Shown: positions 11,445 to 18,283, counted from the first letter of the stretch. The stretch: 64,000 nt of DNA from Octopus vulgaris (GCA_951406725.2 OX597820.1:9300001-9364000); one strand, 5' to 3'. Made by a program: numbers and translations. Notes: a model not told the origin generated them from the sequence alone.

Positions 11445-12273
11445 CTATGCATTGTTTAGGAACTGTAGCTCTTTGTGGAGATCTTCGAGGAGAGATTGGA
11501 AATTAGAGCTCATGTCAACATCGTAAGACCCATTCTCCTCGCTGTAATCGAAGCGAACAGACGGAAAATGATTCGAGTCGGGGGATAAATCCTTGTAACT
11601 TTGTAACCCTGTGTCAGGCACAATGTATTGATCGTGCCAGTCGTCATTGAGGAGATCTGTAACCTTCTGAGGGTTTGAGAAATCGCTGTCACTGAAAGTG
11701 ATATTCTGAGCTGTTTCGGGACAGTATCGCTTATTCGGCAGAGAATCAGGCAGACATATTTCAGAACTGGAACGTTTTAGTTTCAAACTAAAATCCGAAG
11801 TGTCTGACAGCAAGGAGTCATTGGGCGACAAAGAGCTACAGTTGTCTGAAGCCGATGAACTATTAAAATTTTCTAAGATGGGAATGTCAATATTCGAACT
11901 GTATATGCTATCCGAGCTGTTTACGTTGACCAATTTTTTATAAATTGTCTTATCACAATACCACGATTCAAACGATTTCGAACCCGTTGCTTCAGGGATT
12001 TCGTGTTGAGTGCAACATACATCATAATTGATCGACTCACTACCAACGAAAACCGGTGGGGGATTAAAGATGTCCCCGCTGCGTGTGCTCTCATCGATGA
12101 TGCTCAAAGGGGAGTTTCCGTCGCTGTTGAAAGTTTCTCTATATTTACTTGGGTATTCAAACGATGATTGGTGATGACTGCTCGACTTCATGAATTTGCT
12201 ATCTTTAAAATCTGTGGTAAACTTATAGAGATGTCTGTCAACTTTCAACAATTTGCCTTTGTCGATGTAATAC
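11445..12273 (-). CDS. ETS-domain protein, last coding exon (end of ETS domain YYIDKGKLLKVDRHLYKF plus Ser/Asp-rich C-terminal region)
   Basis: This is the only long non-repetitive ORF in the window (track 11445..12251). Extending it 7 codons upstream reaches a pyrimidine-rich acceptor (ttctcttctgcag|G at 12274/12273). Phase 2 matches the upstream exon and gives ...KLRRAL-G-YYIDKGKLLKVDRHLYKF, which aligns with the ETS consensus KLSRALRYYY...L.YKF. Confidence 0.9.
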
Positions 12274-13205
12274 CTGCAGAAGAGAAATATATAATATTAC
12301 TATTATTGTTTTTGTCGTTGAAAAGAAGTGAATATACTTCAAGGATAAAACTCTCGGAGAATACGTGCAAACAAGGAAAGTAATTGCGAGTCAACGAGGG
12401 AAGCCTGTACATGGTTTCTCGAACTGCTAGGAACAACAGCAAAATCTCCCTCAAGTTACACCTTATCATCATAAAAAAAGGAAGAGCATATTGGGGTATG
12501 TAGACCTAGAGATATGCCCGAAAATATAATCACTTGCTCAGGTGCTGCGCTGTGGGAATGAACTCAAAACCACATGGTTACAAAGTAAGCTTCTTAACCA
12601 CACAGCCATGCGTGCGTCTGCGCATGTAAAGTAATGTAAAGATCAAAGGCGGCGAGCTGGCAGAAATGTTAGCACACCGGGCGAAATGCTTAGCAGTTAT
12701 TTCGTCTGCCGTTACGTTCTGAGTAATATAGCGCAGGTAGCAAGATACACAACGTTGGAAAACCGGTACCCACCCGATACAACTGGCTGCAATCGTCAAT
12801 AACCTGACTTAAGTTTCTTGTGGTATACGTCACTTTTGCTCTTAGGAACACCTAAACCTCATCCAAGCTCTTTGCCTGCCTTTTCTTTTTTTTATTTTTA
12901 ATGTGAGGTATTGTGCTTATATAGCAAATCATATACAAATAACGAAAATCAAAGAGACATCAATTATTTAATATCATTAGTTTGACAGAATCGTTAGCAA
13001 TGTTTCTTCTAGCTTTACGTTCTAAGTGCAAATCCCGCCGAGGTCAACTTTGCCTTATATCCTTTCGGGGTCGATAAAATAAATACCAGTTGTGTACTGG
13101 GGTTGATGCATTCGACTAACCCCCTCCCACAAAATTTCAGGCTTTGTATTTATAGCACAGACGGTTATTATGTTGATACTCAAAAAAGGAAAAAATAGAA
13201 AAAAA

Positions 13206-13240
13206 GTATAACGTTTCAGACATAGTCATTCGTCAGATAT
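13206..13240 (-). ncRNA. Minimal hammerhead-like motif (CUGACGA), sense in an ETS intron
   Basis: auau-CUGACGA-au-gac-uau-guc-u-GAAAC-GUU-auac. Confidence 0.5.
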
Positions 13241-13395
13241 TAGAAGACAGTCCAAGGGGAGATAAGAAAGAGAGGAAAGGAAACGAAACTGAAAGGAGAG
13301 AGTCAACAAAAAACAAACGGGTTAAGTTCACATAATCTAAATTTACAAAAGAAATTGATTAACAAGTAATGAGATTAACAATAAGCACAACTCAC

Positions 13396-13597
13396 CCTAA
13401 AGCCCTTCTTAATTTGTTATGATCCATGCTGAAGTTGTTCTTTTCTCTGCCCCATAAAGTAGCGAGAGTGCTTAAGCAACAAATACGGAACAGTCCTTCA
13501 CTGCGGTTCTCCCATCTGATTATCGCGTTGTTGTCTCTATTATTATCAAGGAGATGCAAGAGAAAGTGAAAGAGTCGCTTCCCATGGCCAGAACCAC
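13396..13597 (-). CDS. ETS-domain protein, exon encoding the core ETS domain (ELF/ESE-like, divergent)
   Basis: Translates to GSGHGKRLFHFLLHLLDNNRDNNAIIRWENRSEGLFRICCLSTLATLWGREKNNFSMDHNKLRRAL, matching the ETS pattern LWxFLLxLL...I.W.....G.F......A.LWG..K....M.Y.KLSRAL. Acceptor is tttttgtttttag|GT and donor is GG|gtgagt. Length is 202 nt, phase 1 to phase 2. Confidence 0.92.
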
Positions 13598-13942
13598 CTA
13601 AAAACAAAAAAAAAACAAAAAAAAAAACCCCGATTATATGGATTGATGTGGTTTTGGTCAACACTGTTTCTGGGCATGTGTGTGTAATTATGAGGAATTA
13701 TGATAAACACGCGGGTGTGTGATTTGTTCTCTGCGTACGTTTCACCATTGTGGATGCTGAGCCACAACGGATCATTAGGGGAGCACTTTGCTGCATTATG
13801 TTATACAGATCTAACGCACTGTGTTACAACGATCATAATTTCTTCTAGAGGAAGCAAAGTGGACGGAAAAAACATTGTATGGAATTCTAAACTGATTAGT
13901 AGCAGTCGTACATCTAACTATACACACAAGATACACTATGAT

Positions 13943-13999
<57 letters not shown>

Positions 14000-14019
14000 C
14001 ATATATATATATATATATG

Positions 14020-14202
<183 letters not shown>

Positions 14203-14372
14203 TTGGACTCTGGTCAACTGAGGATGCGCATTTTATGCAAGCTGTTCTTGGAGCATATTAATACAATATTGCATGTAATCTATGCAGCATTCAGCAATTA
14301 AGAGATGAGAATGATGCGTTGAAACAATTGCAGTATATACATATATACATACACACACACACACATGTATAT

Positions 14373-14409
<37 letters not shown>

Positions 14410-14697
14410 CACACACATATATATACATAATGCCGAACAATAAGAATGAGTGCTCAGCACTGCATTGGTGAAAAGTCAAACCCAAGGGAAGTAATCACTC
14501 AAACGGTGCCATCTAAGAGTACTGCCCCTTGATCTATTGTTTTCTTTACGCGACTTTGTGAATTCTCGAAATTTTTCTCGAGATATTTCGTGTTTTCATC
14601 CAAAATGGTGACGAACACAATTCCTCCATTCGATCGGCTTGAAAAATGGTTAATATATTTAGGTATTTTTTTTAACATGAAACCAATGGTGGCCTTA

Positions 14698-14729
<32 letters not shown>

Positions 14730-15043
14730 CGATTGTGTTGCTAATTATGTAATTATTAAAATACGGAAAGGGTTAAGTAATGAGATAACTTACTAGTTTC
14801 ATAATCTGAAATGGCCGTGGACATTAGGCAATCATTATGATCATTGTTATTCTCAAGTAAAAGAGACAATTCTGGGATAGCGACTTCACGTCTGCTATTT
14901 TCTTCCTCTTGTTCTTCCCGCTTTTCAACTGTAAAGACAAAGAGTTCATGCTTATTTCTTAAAGTGTACCTTTGTATAGCTCTATAGAACTATAAAGATC
15001 TAGAGTGAAAGAGAGGGAGAGTGAGAAAGGTAGAGAGAGAGAG

Positions 15044-15143
<100 letters not shown>

Positions 15144-16329
15144 GTAGAAGAAAAGAGAGAGAAAGTTGTGACGTTCATGATTTTTCTAAATGGACAAACT
15201 TTTAACTTTCGAAATGACTTATTCTTAAATTTGTATGAGATTCTGGAAAATGACCAAAATCCTTCCTGTTTTTTTTCTTCCCCAAATGAAGGCGCATGTA
15301 TGGCTGTGTGGTTAAGAAGCCCGTTTTGAAACCATGTGGTTTCAGGTTCAATCCCACTGTGCGGCACCTTGAGCAAGTGTCTCCCACTATAACATAAGGC
15401 TGAATAATGCCTTGTTGGAAACTATGTGGAAACCCGTGGTATATGAGTGTGTGCATGTGTATTTTTGTATGTGTATTTAAGTGCCTTTGCTTGACAACCG
15501 TTGTTGGTTGTAATCTAATGGTTCGGCAAATTAATCCGATGGAATAGTACTACACTTAGAAAGAAAATACTAGGTGGTGCTCTAGCATGGCCGTAATCCA
15601 ATGACTGAAACAAGTAAACGAAAAGATAAAAGATATGATTTAGAATTAAGGCCAAACTTCCAATCCTAACACCAGGATATGGATTTAATATGCATTTCGT
15701 CTCTAGCACAGTTCTCTCCCCTTGTTTAGCACACTTCCTATCATGTCCATTTATACGCCATGTTTTCTTTTGCACCAGCGTTCACATTTTGCCACAAATT
15801 ATGCGTTTAAAAACTTTTTTTGAAACCAGGTATTTATTTCAGCTCACTATATAAACTACCGCATTGATTTATGACATAAATATCGTCGGTGACCCCCAAA
15901 GAAGGCAAAGTGTTAAATACTTATAAACTCTTTCACGTTCGTTAATAGGTGATGCGTTTACTGAGGTACAATCTGAATATTTTGATAGCGTAAAGTACTG
16001 ATTCTCGATTTTGTGAGTATGTGTAAGGAATGTACCACATTTTTCATTGCTACGTGAAAAATAATAAGACATTTGAGATCCACTAAAGTTTCTTTGGGAA
16101 AGGAAGCATACACAATTTTATTTGCTAGTCGGGTGATAAAATTGTCAGTATATTCATATTTCATTCTCTGTTTAAATGTTGAATATTACAATAATTTATT
16201 ACTATTTTGCACTTATCCTCATGGCTACCTCATGCTGTCGAGAATGATTGTCTCCCCTGCTCAGCTGTGTATTCGTTGATAGAATAACGCAGATATTTCC
16301 ATAATGAACGTAAATAGTGGTTAGTATTA

Positions 16330-17697
16330 GACAACGAGCACCAGTATCACTTTCTTTCGCTTGATTTCTTTCAAGATGTTCAGGTCTTTCTTATTCACAG
16401 TTTCAGCTCCTTGATACACAAATAGTTTTTCCCTTAAAGGTCCGCTACTGGCAGTTTTTCCCATTTTATCAAGGTTCTGTTTCATCAGATCCGGAAAGCG
16501 TTTTTTTTCTTTTCTAGCTTTGATAATTTTTCTTCTATCAGCTGAAAGTAGAAGACTTGTTTTGGAAGCGCTTATAACCACCTGGAAGAGAGGACCAGTA
16601 CATCTGAGTTGGATTTTTTAAAAATGACAATTACTTCACAGCTGATCGTTTTTGTTTCACTGAGGACATTGAAGTTTGTTCGATAGTCCTTCCAACTAAT
16701 TTCAAGAAGGTTTTGAAGTCCAGTGCTGGAGAAAATATTTCAAGCTTTCAATAAGTAGTCCATCTTTCAGATCTGTAGAGAAGAACTGGCACAACTACGG
16801 AACAGATTACAACTCGACGTTTCTGAAATCTCGAAAGCAACCGAAAGCTGCACCAGCACAGAGAAGTGTGCACTGGATCCATGTTAACATTAAAAGACAA
16901 TTCATTTACGAGATATAAGAAATGGTAAACGTTTTTGAGAACCTTTTCATATAGTTCGAATAGGGGGACTTGAAAGTTGATGTGGCGAGGAGAAGATTGG
17001 AAACAATCTGTGTCTTCTTCAAACTGATGTTTAGTACAAAGTAGGTATCCGCGCGATTAATTACTTAGATGTTGGTTTGTAGGTTCCTCTCTGCGCTCGT
17101 TTATGAAGCAATATTAATATTCGTATATCGAAAGTCTAGCAGTGAGATTGTAGCCATATTCTTGAATTTGAATCTGCAGAAGTTGAAGAGATTTTCACCG
17201 ACTCGGTAGACAATATCTATGCAATAAGAACTTGGCCCTGGTGAGATGCATGATTGCGGGGGATGAATGAATAGAACAAAGAGGCTTGGTGCAAGGATGG
17301 TCTCTGCGATACTCCGTTACTGCCATTACCAAGTCTCGAAATTTTGAATTTCTTTGCACAACCAACCGTTTTAAGAATGCAGCAGAAAAGACCGCGAATG
17401 ACAATATTGAATCCCTCCGTGACATCAACAATGATCAACTACTATGGATATTACTGTTTTTGAATTTGTATAAATGCCGTCTATCTTCACAGCCATTGGA
17501 TTGCAATGCTTACCTTCTTCCGCCCATTTCACCATTGAAGTCCTGGTTCATGGATCGTACTTAGTCTGGAACCTCCCCCACAACCTTTCCGCCATGGGTG
17601 ACCCTGCCAGGAACATGAAGCTCCCTGCGGCATAGCTTGTGAGGTCATTGGAACACGCAAGCCCTCTCACCACGACAAGGTGACGATCCGAGAGGGT
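16330..17697 (-). mobile_element. Degenerate, internally deleted RTE/BovB-type LINE
   Basis: BovB-like 5' end (cggatcgtcaccttgtcgtggtgagagggcttgcg...cagggtcacccatggcgg) followed by RT fragments IVDVTEGFNIVIRG...GCAKKF, IVYRVGENLFNFCRFK, LNISLKKT, VVVPVLLYRSERWTTY, EISWKD and KRFPDLMK, with stops and frameshifts. Confidence 0.8.
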
Positions 17698-18192
17698 ACC
17701 CTGCACTTACTGATTATCGTATTTGATGGCATAAAAGACACATAGACATATTAGATGCAACGCTATTTCAACAGCGCATATTCAGGAAAAATTTTAAGTG
17801 TATTAAAGCTTAAGGGAAATACAATTCAGGGTAGGACTCAGGGTAATTTTTAAAAAACATTTTTTGAAGAAGTGTGTCGTACATACCATAAAAAGCGATA
17901 ATTATAATTAAAATAGAAATCAATCACACAGAATTTCTCCGAAGGACGAAAAATTCAACGCAAGTCAATCGGAAGTTAGTTCTATTATCACCCAACTTAA
18001 TTTTTTAAATCACCCAAAATTTAAAGAATCATTTGCCATGTATTATTGTGAACTATTTTCAACAGCTGTTTCATCAAGAATAAACAGCATTCGTAATTTA
18101 TGGAAAATGTTAGTGTAGGATCTGGAGAAATAAAATCCTATGTGCTACTATATTCAATACAACAATCACTGCATACACAGATATCTACTCAC

Positions 18193-18226
18193 CAAAACAA
18201 TCCCAGGGAAAAGCAAAATCCTCCAT
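18193..18226 (-). CDS. ETS-domain protein, first coding exon (MEDFAFPWDCF-G); full exon 18245-18193
   Basis: Acceptor tctctcaacag|G at 18246/18245 and donor TTG|gtgagt at 18193/18192. ATG is in a strong context (atcATGG). The 34 coding nt give phase 1, matching the ETS exon. Total CDS is 1065 nt, or 354 aa. Confidence 0.75.
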
Positions 18227-18283
18227 GATATTGTTTAAACCAAACCTGTTGAGAGATGAATAAAGAGTAATTATTGTATTTGC

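What the first reader, a model, noticed from the sequence alone, without database searches (positions are those of the whole stretch)
11445..18226. Divergent ETS factor lacking an invariant DNA-contacting arginine (possible pseudo-ETS or altered specificity)
Seen: three phase-compatible exons give an intact 354-aa ORF with an N-terminal ETS domain. The recognition helix reads MDHNKLRRALGYYI versus the consensus M(N/T)YEKLSRA(L/M)RYYY, and LWEF has become LFHF. The Gly codon (GG|G) spans the exon junction, so it is invisible in the ORF track. Established: in ETS1 the two arginines R391 and R394 read the GGA core and are essentially invariant. Here the second is Gly, and a new Arg replaces the Ser just before the first. 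WENRSEG and WGREKNN resemble the ELF/ESE subfamily, but there is no PNT domain. Inference: this is a lineage-specific ETS protein with changed or lost GGAA binding, possibly a decoy or cofactor.
Basis: partly seen in the sequence, partly recalled or inferred. Interest (0 to 1): 0.75.

Follow-up and report, generated by a model that had tools for sequence, protein, structure and literature searches.

The report
Octopus ETS factor missing key arginine
Common octopuses transcribe a fast-evolving gene-regulator gene (ETS family) in which one of the two DNA-reading arginines is replaced by glycine, while the California two-spot octopus keeps the arginine, so the common-octopus protein has likely lost normal DNA recognition fairly recently.

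Summary
The junction 13396>12273 (GG|G, Gly) is the only frame-compatible one nearby and is seen in RNA-like contigs of two studies. Gly is also in the O. sinensis RefSeq protein and a third organism's contig, so it is not an assembly error. The O. bimaculoides orthologue keeps Arg, so Arg>Gly is one A>G change dated to about 34-2.5 Mya. The other oddities (DHN, the new Arg, YYI) are older. Arg stands there in 147 of 147 other ETS proteins and 14 of 14 paralogues. The same Arg>Ala cuts ETV1 binding about 1000-fold. Best reading: a PNT-less, ESE/EHF-like paralogue, probably still DNA-binding in the ancestor, was recently crippled and is under relaxed selection. A working decoy, or rescue by the neighbouring new Arg, is not excluded. 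A 2023 survey filed this gene as an octopus-only ERF; sequence scores favour ESE, but the tree cannot settle it. No binding or dN/dS data. The scan's earlier notes held nothing on it.

The parts
18193..18226 (-). First coding exon part (ATG at 18226; exon acceptor at 18245), 11 codons plus 1 base
   Evidence: 4-exon model equals P0001/CAI9725215.1; same start in O. sinensis X1 and O. bimaculoides proteins
17514..17535 (-). Alternative first coding exon (7 codons plus 1 base), as in O. sinensis isoform X2
   Evidence: tblastn of P0003; joined to the next exon it matches the start of P0003 at 29 of 30 residues
14794..14928 (-).
   Evidence: X5 contig runs 136 letters past 13597, which fits this exon plus one shared base before alternative first exons (inference, table 8)
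13396..13597 (-). ETS exon: helix 1 to the recognition helix, ending in GG of the Gly codon
   Evidence: PF00178 positions 1-59; covered by contigs in X1, X5, X17
13396..13397 (-). First two bases (GG) of Gly124, the R394-equivalent; paralogues have AG or CG here
   Evidence: no other letter in X1, X5, X17
13407..13409 (-). AGA, Arg120: new Arg at the S390-equivalent, shared with O. bimaculoides
   Evidence: Arg in 0 of 147 other ETS domains
12274..13395 (-). 1122-nt phase-2 GT-AG intron inside the Gly/Arg codon
   Evidence: same intron position in 6 of 14 other ETS loci of the genome (L009-L014)
11445..12273 (-). Last coding exon: end of ETS domain (YYI, wing) and a 257-aa acidic, Ser-rich tail; stop at 11447-11445
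   Evidence: single copy in the genome
23092..29704 (-). Two further upstream exons (about 29704-29606 and 23160-23092) used by the longer annotated isoform CAI9725214.1 (464 aa)
   Evidence: tblastn of P0005; exact borders were not recovered

Best explanation
This is a spliced, likely transcribed, PNT-less ETS gene most like the ESE/EHF group, in which the second DNA-reading arginine is glycine in O. vulgaris and O. sinensis but arginine in O. bimaculoides; the change likely cripples GGAA recognition, and the gene is likely under relaxed selection in the common-octopus lineage. Steps: (1) inferred: it arose by duplication of an ESE gene, perhaps the PNT-ETS neighbour 64 kb away, lost PNT and diverged fast. 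(2) Shown: O. bimaculoides keeps the R-R-Y base-reading triad and 10 of 12 listed DNA-contact positions; inferred: the ancestor still bound DNA, perhaps with altered flanks. (3) Shown by sequence: one A>G change gives Gly; dated by published splits to about 34-2.5 Mya. (4) Predicted: the domain still folds, enters the nucleus and keeps its phosphate contacts, but binds GGAA roughly 1000-fold more weakly, so it no longer acts as a sequence-specific ETS regulator.
For: Gly in O. vulgaris and O. sinensis proteins, Arg in O. bimaculoides. Junction and codon seen in contigs from three organisms. Arg in 147 of 147 other ETS domains. ETV1 R394A binds 1021-fold (table) or 1300-fold (text) more weakly (PMC4447949). 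Contact positions W375, K379, K388, R391, Y395, Y396, K399, K404, R409 are kept in both species; Y386>H and Y397>I are lost in both; R394 is lost only in O. vulgaris/sinensis (mapping by alignment). With unnamed protein P0002 as outgroup the tail has 22 changes on the O. vulgaris branch and 8 on the O. bimaculoides branch (p = 0.016). The O. sinensis RefSeq model stops at 179 aa, which a one-base shift of the window's frame reproduces. EHF and ETV6 double Arg>Ala mutants still bind importin-9 (PMC13142979). ESE likeness: ELF5 63.9, EHF 58.7, ELF3 54.0 bits against ERF 33.2; ESE profile 81.2 bits against 62-70 for four other profiles.
Against: No binding assay and no dN/dS. The O. vulgaris frame is intact, the ETS domain is identical in O. 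vulgaris and O. sinensis, and the only difference seen in the ETS exon among three organisms is synonymous; the time span is short, so this has little power. The 22:8 asymmetry rests on one unnamed outgroup with no genome-wide rate control, and could be a lineage effect or positive selection. The O. sinensis truncation may be an assembly error; it was not checked by reads. The ETS domain is more conserved than the rest (72 of 79 against 267 of 320), but not significantly (Fisher p = 0.11). The tree does not fix the subfamily (p-AU 0.64). The AlphaFold fold is driven by the alignment of canonical ETS proteins.
Confidence: 0.5

Rival explanations
1. Working pseudo-ETS: base reading is dispensable, and the protein is kept for its fold and acidic tail, acting as a tethered cofactor or a competitor of canonical ETS factors, as HOPX does among homeodomains.
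For: The frame has stayed open in O. vulgaris, O. bimaculoides and P0002 (tail 160 of 242 identical to P0002); in a substitution-only neutral simulation the last exon stayed open in 0.8-1.5% of 1000 runs at the divergence that gives 61-70% identity. Core residues and fold are kept (pLDDT 87-97 per block over residues 61-140). Long stem (3.04) but short path between the two species (0.12) suggests a burst and then stasis. A C-terminal amphipathic acidic segment is shared by the three tails.
Against: The open-frame argument mostly covers time before the Gly change. Retention of most DNA-contact residues in O. bimaculoides fits DNA binding rather than a long-standing decoy. Tail conservation is not significantly clustered (p = 0.11). 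If real, the O. sinensis truncation removes the tail. No partner is known.
Confidence: 0.2
2. Arginine shift: the older new Arg120 (S390-equivalent, one helical turn before position 394) reaches the same part of the major groove, made R394 dispensable, and gives a non-GGAA or relaxed motif.
For: Arg120 occurs in 0 of 147 other ETS domains yet is shared by both species, so it came before the Gly. In ETV1, S390 and R394 coordinate the same water network at bases -2 and -1 (PMC4447949). Backbone contacts, which that paper finds dominate affinity, are mostly kept.
Against: No protein-DNA model or assay could be run. Gly in mid-helix is expected to be destabilising (general knowledge). Y397>I and Y386>H would weaken binding further; Y397F gave no measurable binding in ETV1.
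Confidence: 0.2
3. It is the octopus ERF/ETV3L orthologue, as filed in a survey of mollusc ETS genes, with a role in neuron differentiation.
For: PMC10664356 supplement lists XP_014787929.1 as ERF and XP_029639090.1 and XP_036360379.1 as ETV3L. The AU test does not reject grouping with class I ETS proteins; that tree even scored 2.94 lnL higher than the free quick tree. No ERF sequence was in my trees.
Against: ERF ranks 55th of the 60 PDB sequences shown, at 33.2 bits against 63.9 for ELF5. All 8 named clusters among 10 top hits looked up lack an ERF name, and 7 carry EHF or ELF5 names. The longer strand-1 loop is shared with ESE/ELF and not class I. The mixture-model tree puts it in the ESE group at SH-aLRT 94. 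The branch is very long, so misplacement in any tree is likely.
Confidence: 0.06
4. Artefact: wrong junction, assembly error or private allele.
For: None found. The runs are only guessed to be RNA, and contigs hide rare variants.
Against: Unique frame-compatible junction; junction in two studies and GG in three organisms; independent O. sinensis model with Gly.
Confidence: 0.02

Closest known systems
ESE subfamily of ETS factors (human ELF5, EHF, ELF3)
   Same: Best sequence matches among solved structures (63.9, 58.7, 54.0 bits); longer strand-1 loop; short wing as in ELF5; best of five profiles; PNT-less mollusc ESE genes are common (PMC10664356, Discussion read).
   Different: No PNT; ETS domain near the N-terminus with a 257-aa acidic tail; W>F, Y>H, S>R, Y>I in both species and R>G in O. 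vulgaris/sinensis; only 36-39% identical to the genome's own ESE paralogues.
Engineered ETV1 R394A (PMC4447949; passages and section 22 read)
   Same: Same column lost; the fold is kept while specific binding falls about 1000-fold.
   Different: Here the change is to Gly, natural and shared by at least two species, in a domain with a new Arg four residues earlier; binding was not measured.
HOPX, a homeodomain without DNA binding (PMC6997107, PMC9179269; search listing and abstract start only)
   Same: A DNA-binding fold that lacks conserved DNA-contact residues and could act through partners.
   Different: HOPX is an established, conserved cofactor; here the loss is recent, no partner is known, and signs of relaxed selection exist.
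'Octopus-only ERF/ETV3L' genes of PMC10664356 (passages, Discussion, supplement rows read)
   Same: Three of the six listed sequences are this gene's O. bimaculoides and O. sinensis proteins.
   Different: That paper does not discuss the arginine ('arginine' occurs 0 times in its main text); my sequence scores favour ESE over ERF.

Membership tests
ETS-domain family | PF00178 above the curated cut-off | tested here: met
   69.9 bits against cut-off 26.9, profile positions 1-80 of 81
ETS-domain family | Winged helix-turn-helix fold | tested here: met
   Model with three main helices and four strands, high pLDDT over 61-140; all Foldseek rows shown are ETS domains; alignment-driven, single-sequence model failed
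ETS-domain family | Two invariant Arg plus Tyr on the recognition helix | tested here: not met
   R121 and Y125 kept, second Arg is Gly in O. vulgaris and O. sinensis; met in O. bimaculoides
ETS-domain family | Binds GGA(A/T) | not testable with these tools
   Needs EMSA or SELEX; predicted lost from ETV1 R394A
ESE subfamily | ETS domain closest to ELF3/ELF5/EHF by sequence | tested here: met
ESE subfamily | Groups with ESE in a tree | tested here: inconclusive
   Inside the ESE group at SH-aLRT 94 in a quick tree, on a very long branch; the alternative is not rejected, p-AU 0.64
ESE subfamily | N-terminal PNT domain | tested here: not met
   No SAM_PNT in three isoforms or orthologues nor in the window or 30 kb upstream of it; PNT loss is frequent in mollusc ESE genes (PMC10664356)
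ERF/ETV3 subfamily | ETS domain closest to ERF by sequence | tested here: not met
   ERF 33.2 bits, 55th of 60 shown
ERF/ETV3 subfamily | Groups with ERF/ETV3 in a tree | not tested
   No ERF sequence among the stored proteins (motif search)
Pseudo-transcription factor (HOPX type) | No DNA binding, with function through partners | not testable with these tools
   No assay; no partner known
Pseudo-transcription factor (HOPX type) | Loss of contact residues conserved across orthologues | tested here: not met
   O. bimaculoides keeps the Arg

The most novel reading that the evidence does not exclude
A natural ETS protein that has left the family's universal GGA code: an earlier Ser>Arg gain one turn up the recognition helix let the invariant second Arg be lost, giving the common-octopus protein a new DNA motif or a decoy role, with the O. 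bimaculoides orthologue (both Args) as a living intermediate.
Probability: 0.25. Interest if true: 0.75.

Novelty: new variant of a known kind. Interest (0 to 1): 0.4.

Why it matters
All ETS proteins are described as reading GGA through two arginines. A natural, species-wide loss of one, with a close orthologue that keeps it, is a ready two-protein experiment on how an invariant DNA contact can be lost: by decay, by conversion to a decoy, or by compensation from a neighbouring new arginine. It also bears on a published suggestion that octopuses alone among molluscs have ERF genes linked to their brains, since half of the sequences listed there are this divergent gene. If it is simple decay of a duplicate, the value is modest.

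Tried and rejected
Alternative splice sites restoring Arg: none in the ranges scanned. More cephalopod orthologues with the ETS domain: three word-index searches, one full HMMER search of 50% representatives and one metagenome scan gave only O. vulgaris, O. sinensis, O. bimaculoides and the tail-only unnamed P0002. This is weak evidence for absence in squid or cuttlefish. No run was on record as RNA; X16 laid nothing. RNA-editing origin (AGG>GGG is an A-to-I-type change, and edited A is more often replaced by G in cephalopods; PMC7703385, abstract only): no unusual duplex at the site (best -24.0 kcal/mol, within 28 controls of -16.7 to -30.7), no ETS names in the one supplement searched (PMC8382921), and a third paper was not held. 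It stays an untested lead. Intron position as a subfamily marker: not used, because I recall (no call) the same intron in vertebrate ERF and ETS1. The careful tree did not finish; quick trees only. Second ETS halves of paralogues L010 and L011 were not found within about 50 and 59 kb. The ESM Atlas tail search gave one hit at 0.77, below the useful range. Single-sequence fold failed (pLDDT 39). dN/dS could not be computed: no O. bimaculoides DNA was available. Print: searches listed no paper that, by title or abstract start, describes this substitution or a natural ETS lacking this Arg; the library lacks most subscription journals and bioRxiv supplements were not seen. No complex prediction was run.

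Full report
Setting. The window is G000:C7:9300001-9364000 of a 2.8-Gb genome. The protein encoded on the minus strand is identical to the annotated O. vulgaris protein CAI9725215.1, 'ETS homologous factor isoform X3'.

Observation. The annotated protein has 399 aa, because a 135-nt exon at 14928-14794 lies between the first two; the 4-exon model equals it exactly and all three introns are GT-AG. The O. sinensis and O. bimaculoides models also hold this exon. An alternative first exon at 17535-17514 matches O. sinensis isoform X2. For the decisive junction, only donor 13396 with acceptor 12273 keeps the frame among all candidate sites scanned. Contigs from runs X1 and X5 (guessed RNA, two studies, two organisms) cover the ETS exon with 0 and 1 other letters and go on with the first bases of the last exon. 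A contig from X17 (a third organism) crosses the donor with GG unchanged; X16 laid nothing. The single other letter, at 13493, is synonymous. The same phase-2 intron splits this codon in 6 of the 14 other ETS loci found in the genome, where it reads AG or CG. The Gly is therefore real and differs from an AG-type Arg codon by one A>G change.

How unusual. A HMMER search of 1.84 billion representatives gave 2340 hits; the best 150 were listed. After dropping two without an ETS domain and the gene's own orthogroup, 147 domains remained. All 147 have Arg at the R394 column and 146 at R391. All 14 paralogues have both. Of 19 columns at least 90% conserved, the O. vulgaris domain departs at 4 (W>F, Y>H, R>G, Y>I) and the O. 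bimaculoides domain at 3; 11 of 157 other domains depart at 3 or more, so the overall divergence is high but not unique.

When it arose. O. sinensis (XP_029639090, XP_036360379) has Gly; O. bimaculoides (XP_014787929) has Arg and shares the DHN, new Arg120 and YYI changes. Published splits are about 34 Mya for O. bimaculoides and 2.5 Mya for O. sinensis (bioRxiv 10.1101/2023.05.16.540928, passages). The Gly is thus a recent change in an already odd domain, not the defining mark of the gene.

Family. Pfam, a structure model and Foldseek all say ETS; the model rests on an alignment of 81 canonical relatives, and the single-sequence fold failed. The closest solved sequences are ELF5, EHF and ELF3 (63.9, 58.7, 54.0 bits) against ERF at 33.2. 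An ESE profile scores 81.2 bits against 62-70 for four others. A quick mixture-model tree of 74 of 162 near-full rows puts it in the ESE group at SH-aLRT 94 on a stem of 3.04, but an AU test on 47 rows does not reject grouping with class I (p 0.64). A canonical PNT-plus-ETS ESE gene lies 64 kb away on the same strand, which fits tandem duplication, but domain identity to it (39%) is no higher than to other paralogues (32-39%). PMC10664356 (passages, Discussion and supplement rows read) files this gene as ERF/ETV3L, found only in Octopus, and speculates on a neural role. Sequence scores argue against that label; my trees held no ERF, so this is not settled.

Likely effect. R394A binds about 1000- to 1300-fold more weakly, R391A 44- to 50-fold, and K379A, K404A and Y397F show no measurable binding (PMC4447949, passages and section 22). 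By alignment, of 12 contact positions (W375, K379, Y386, K388, R391, R394, Y395, Y396, Y397, K399, K404, R409) O. bimaculoides keeps 10 and O. vulgaris 9. Keeping so many exposed basic residues across about 60% divergence suggests the ancestor bound DNA (inference). I recall, without a call, that PU.1 tolerates a non-Tyr at 397, so Y397>I need not be fatal. Double Arg>Ala mutants of EHF and ETV6 still bind importin-9 (PMC13142979, passages), so nuclear entry is probably kept. The tail is acidic and Ser-rich (41 D+E, 19 K+R, 49 S in 257 aa) with no Pfam match at the cut-off.

Selection. O. vulgaris against O. bimaculoides: N-terminus 53 of 63, ETS 72 of 79, tail 214 of 257 identical (ETS against rest p = 0.11). 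The frame is open in three lineages down to 66% identity, which a neutral simulation seldom allows (about 1%), so the gene has long been kept as a protein. With P0002 as outgroup, tail changes are 22 on the O. vulgaris branch and 8 on the O. bimaculoides branch (p = 0.016, no genome-wide control). The O. sinensis model ends at 179 aa, as a one-base shift would give (all); this may be an assembly error. Against decay: the O. vulgaris frame is intact and its ETS domain is identical to that of O. sinensis.

Verdict. Best explanation (0.5): recent crippling of GGAA recognition in a divergent ESE-like duplicate now under relaxed selection. Rivals: working decoy or cofactor (0.2), compensation by Arg120 with a changed motif (0.2), ERF orthologue (0.06), artefact (0.02). 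The splice, the Gly and its species spread are shown; loss of binding, nuclear entry, origin by tandem duplication and relaxed selection are inferred. Literature searches listed no description of this substitution by title or abstract start. The scan's earlier notes held nothing on it. Novelty: new variant of a known kind. Interest 0.4.

Noticed in passing
L017-L018 (G000:C7 about 9,248,950-9,259,600, minus strand): Canonical ESE/EHF-like gene with a PNT exon (43.3 bits SAM_PNT) and an ETS exon, 64 kb from the finding on the same strand; its last ETS exon was not found within about 59 kb.
   Followed up: partly
L009-L015 (contig C7) and L010 (contig C5): The genome holds six ESE-like ETS loci (L010-L015), five on C7. 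L012, L013 and L014 form one starred group; L014 is also divergent (W>Y in helix 1) but keeps both arginines.
   Followed up: partly
window about 12125-12105 (minus strand): The O. sinensis RefSeq proteins end at 175 and 179 aa in a way that a one-base shift of this frame reproduces: a real truncation or an assembly error.
   Followed up: partly
L001-L003 (contig C30): Three near-identical ERG/FEV-type ETS domains lie on one contig, two of them about 470 kb apart.
   Followed up: no
L020 (G000:C7 about 9,276,100-9,277,800, minus strand): ORFs that look by eye like a Helitron or PIF1-type helicase lie between the two ETS genes; not searched against any library.
   Followed up: no
P0148 (unnamed; its cluster holds VVC32118.1): Another natural ETS domain lacks the first arginine (R391>A) while keeping the second; 1 of 147.
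   Followed up: no
window 13397: AGG>GGG two bases before a splice donor is the kind of change A-to-I editing makes; no supporting duplex was found.
   Followed up: partly
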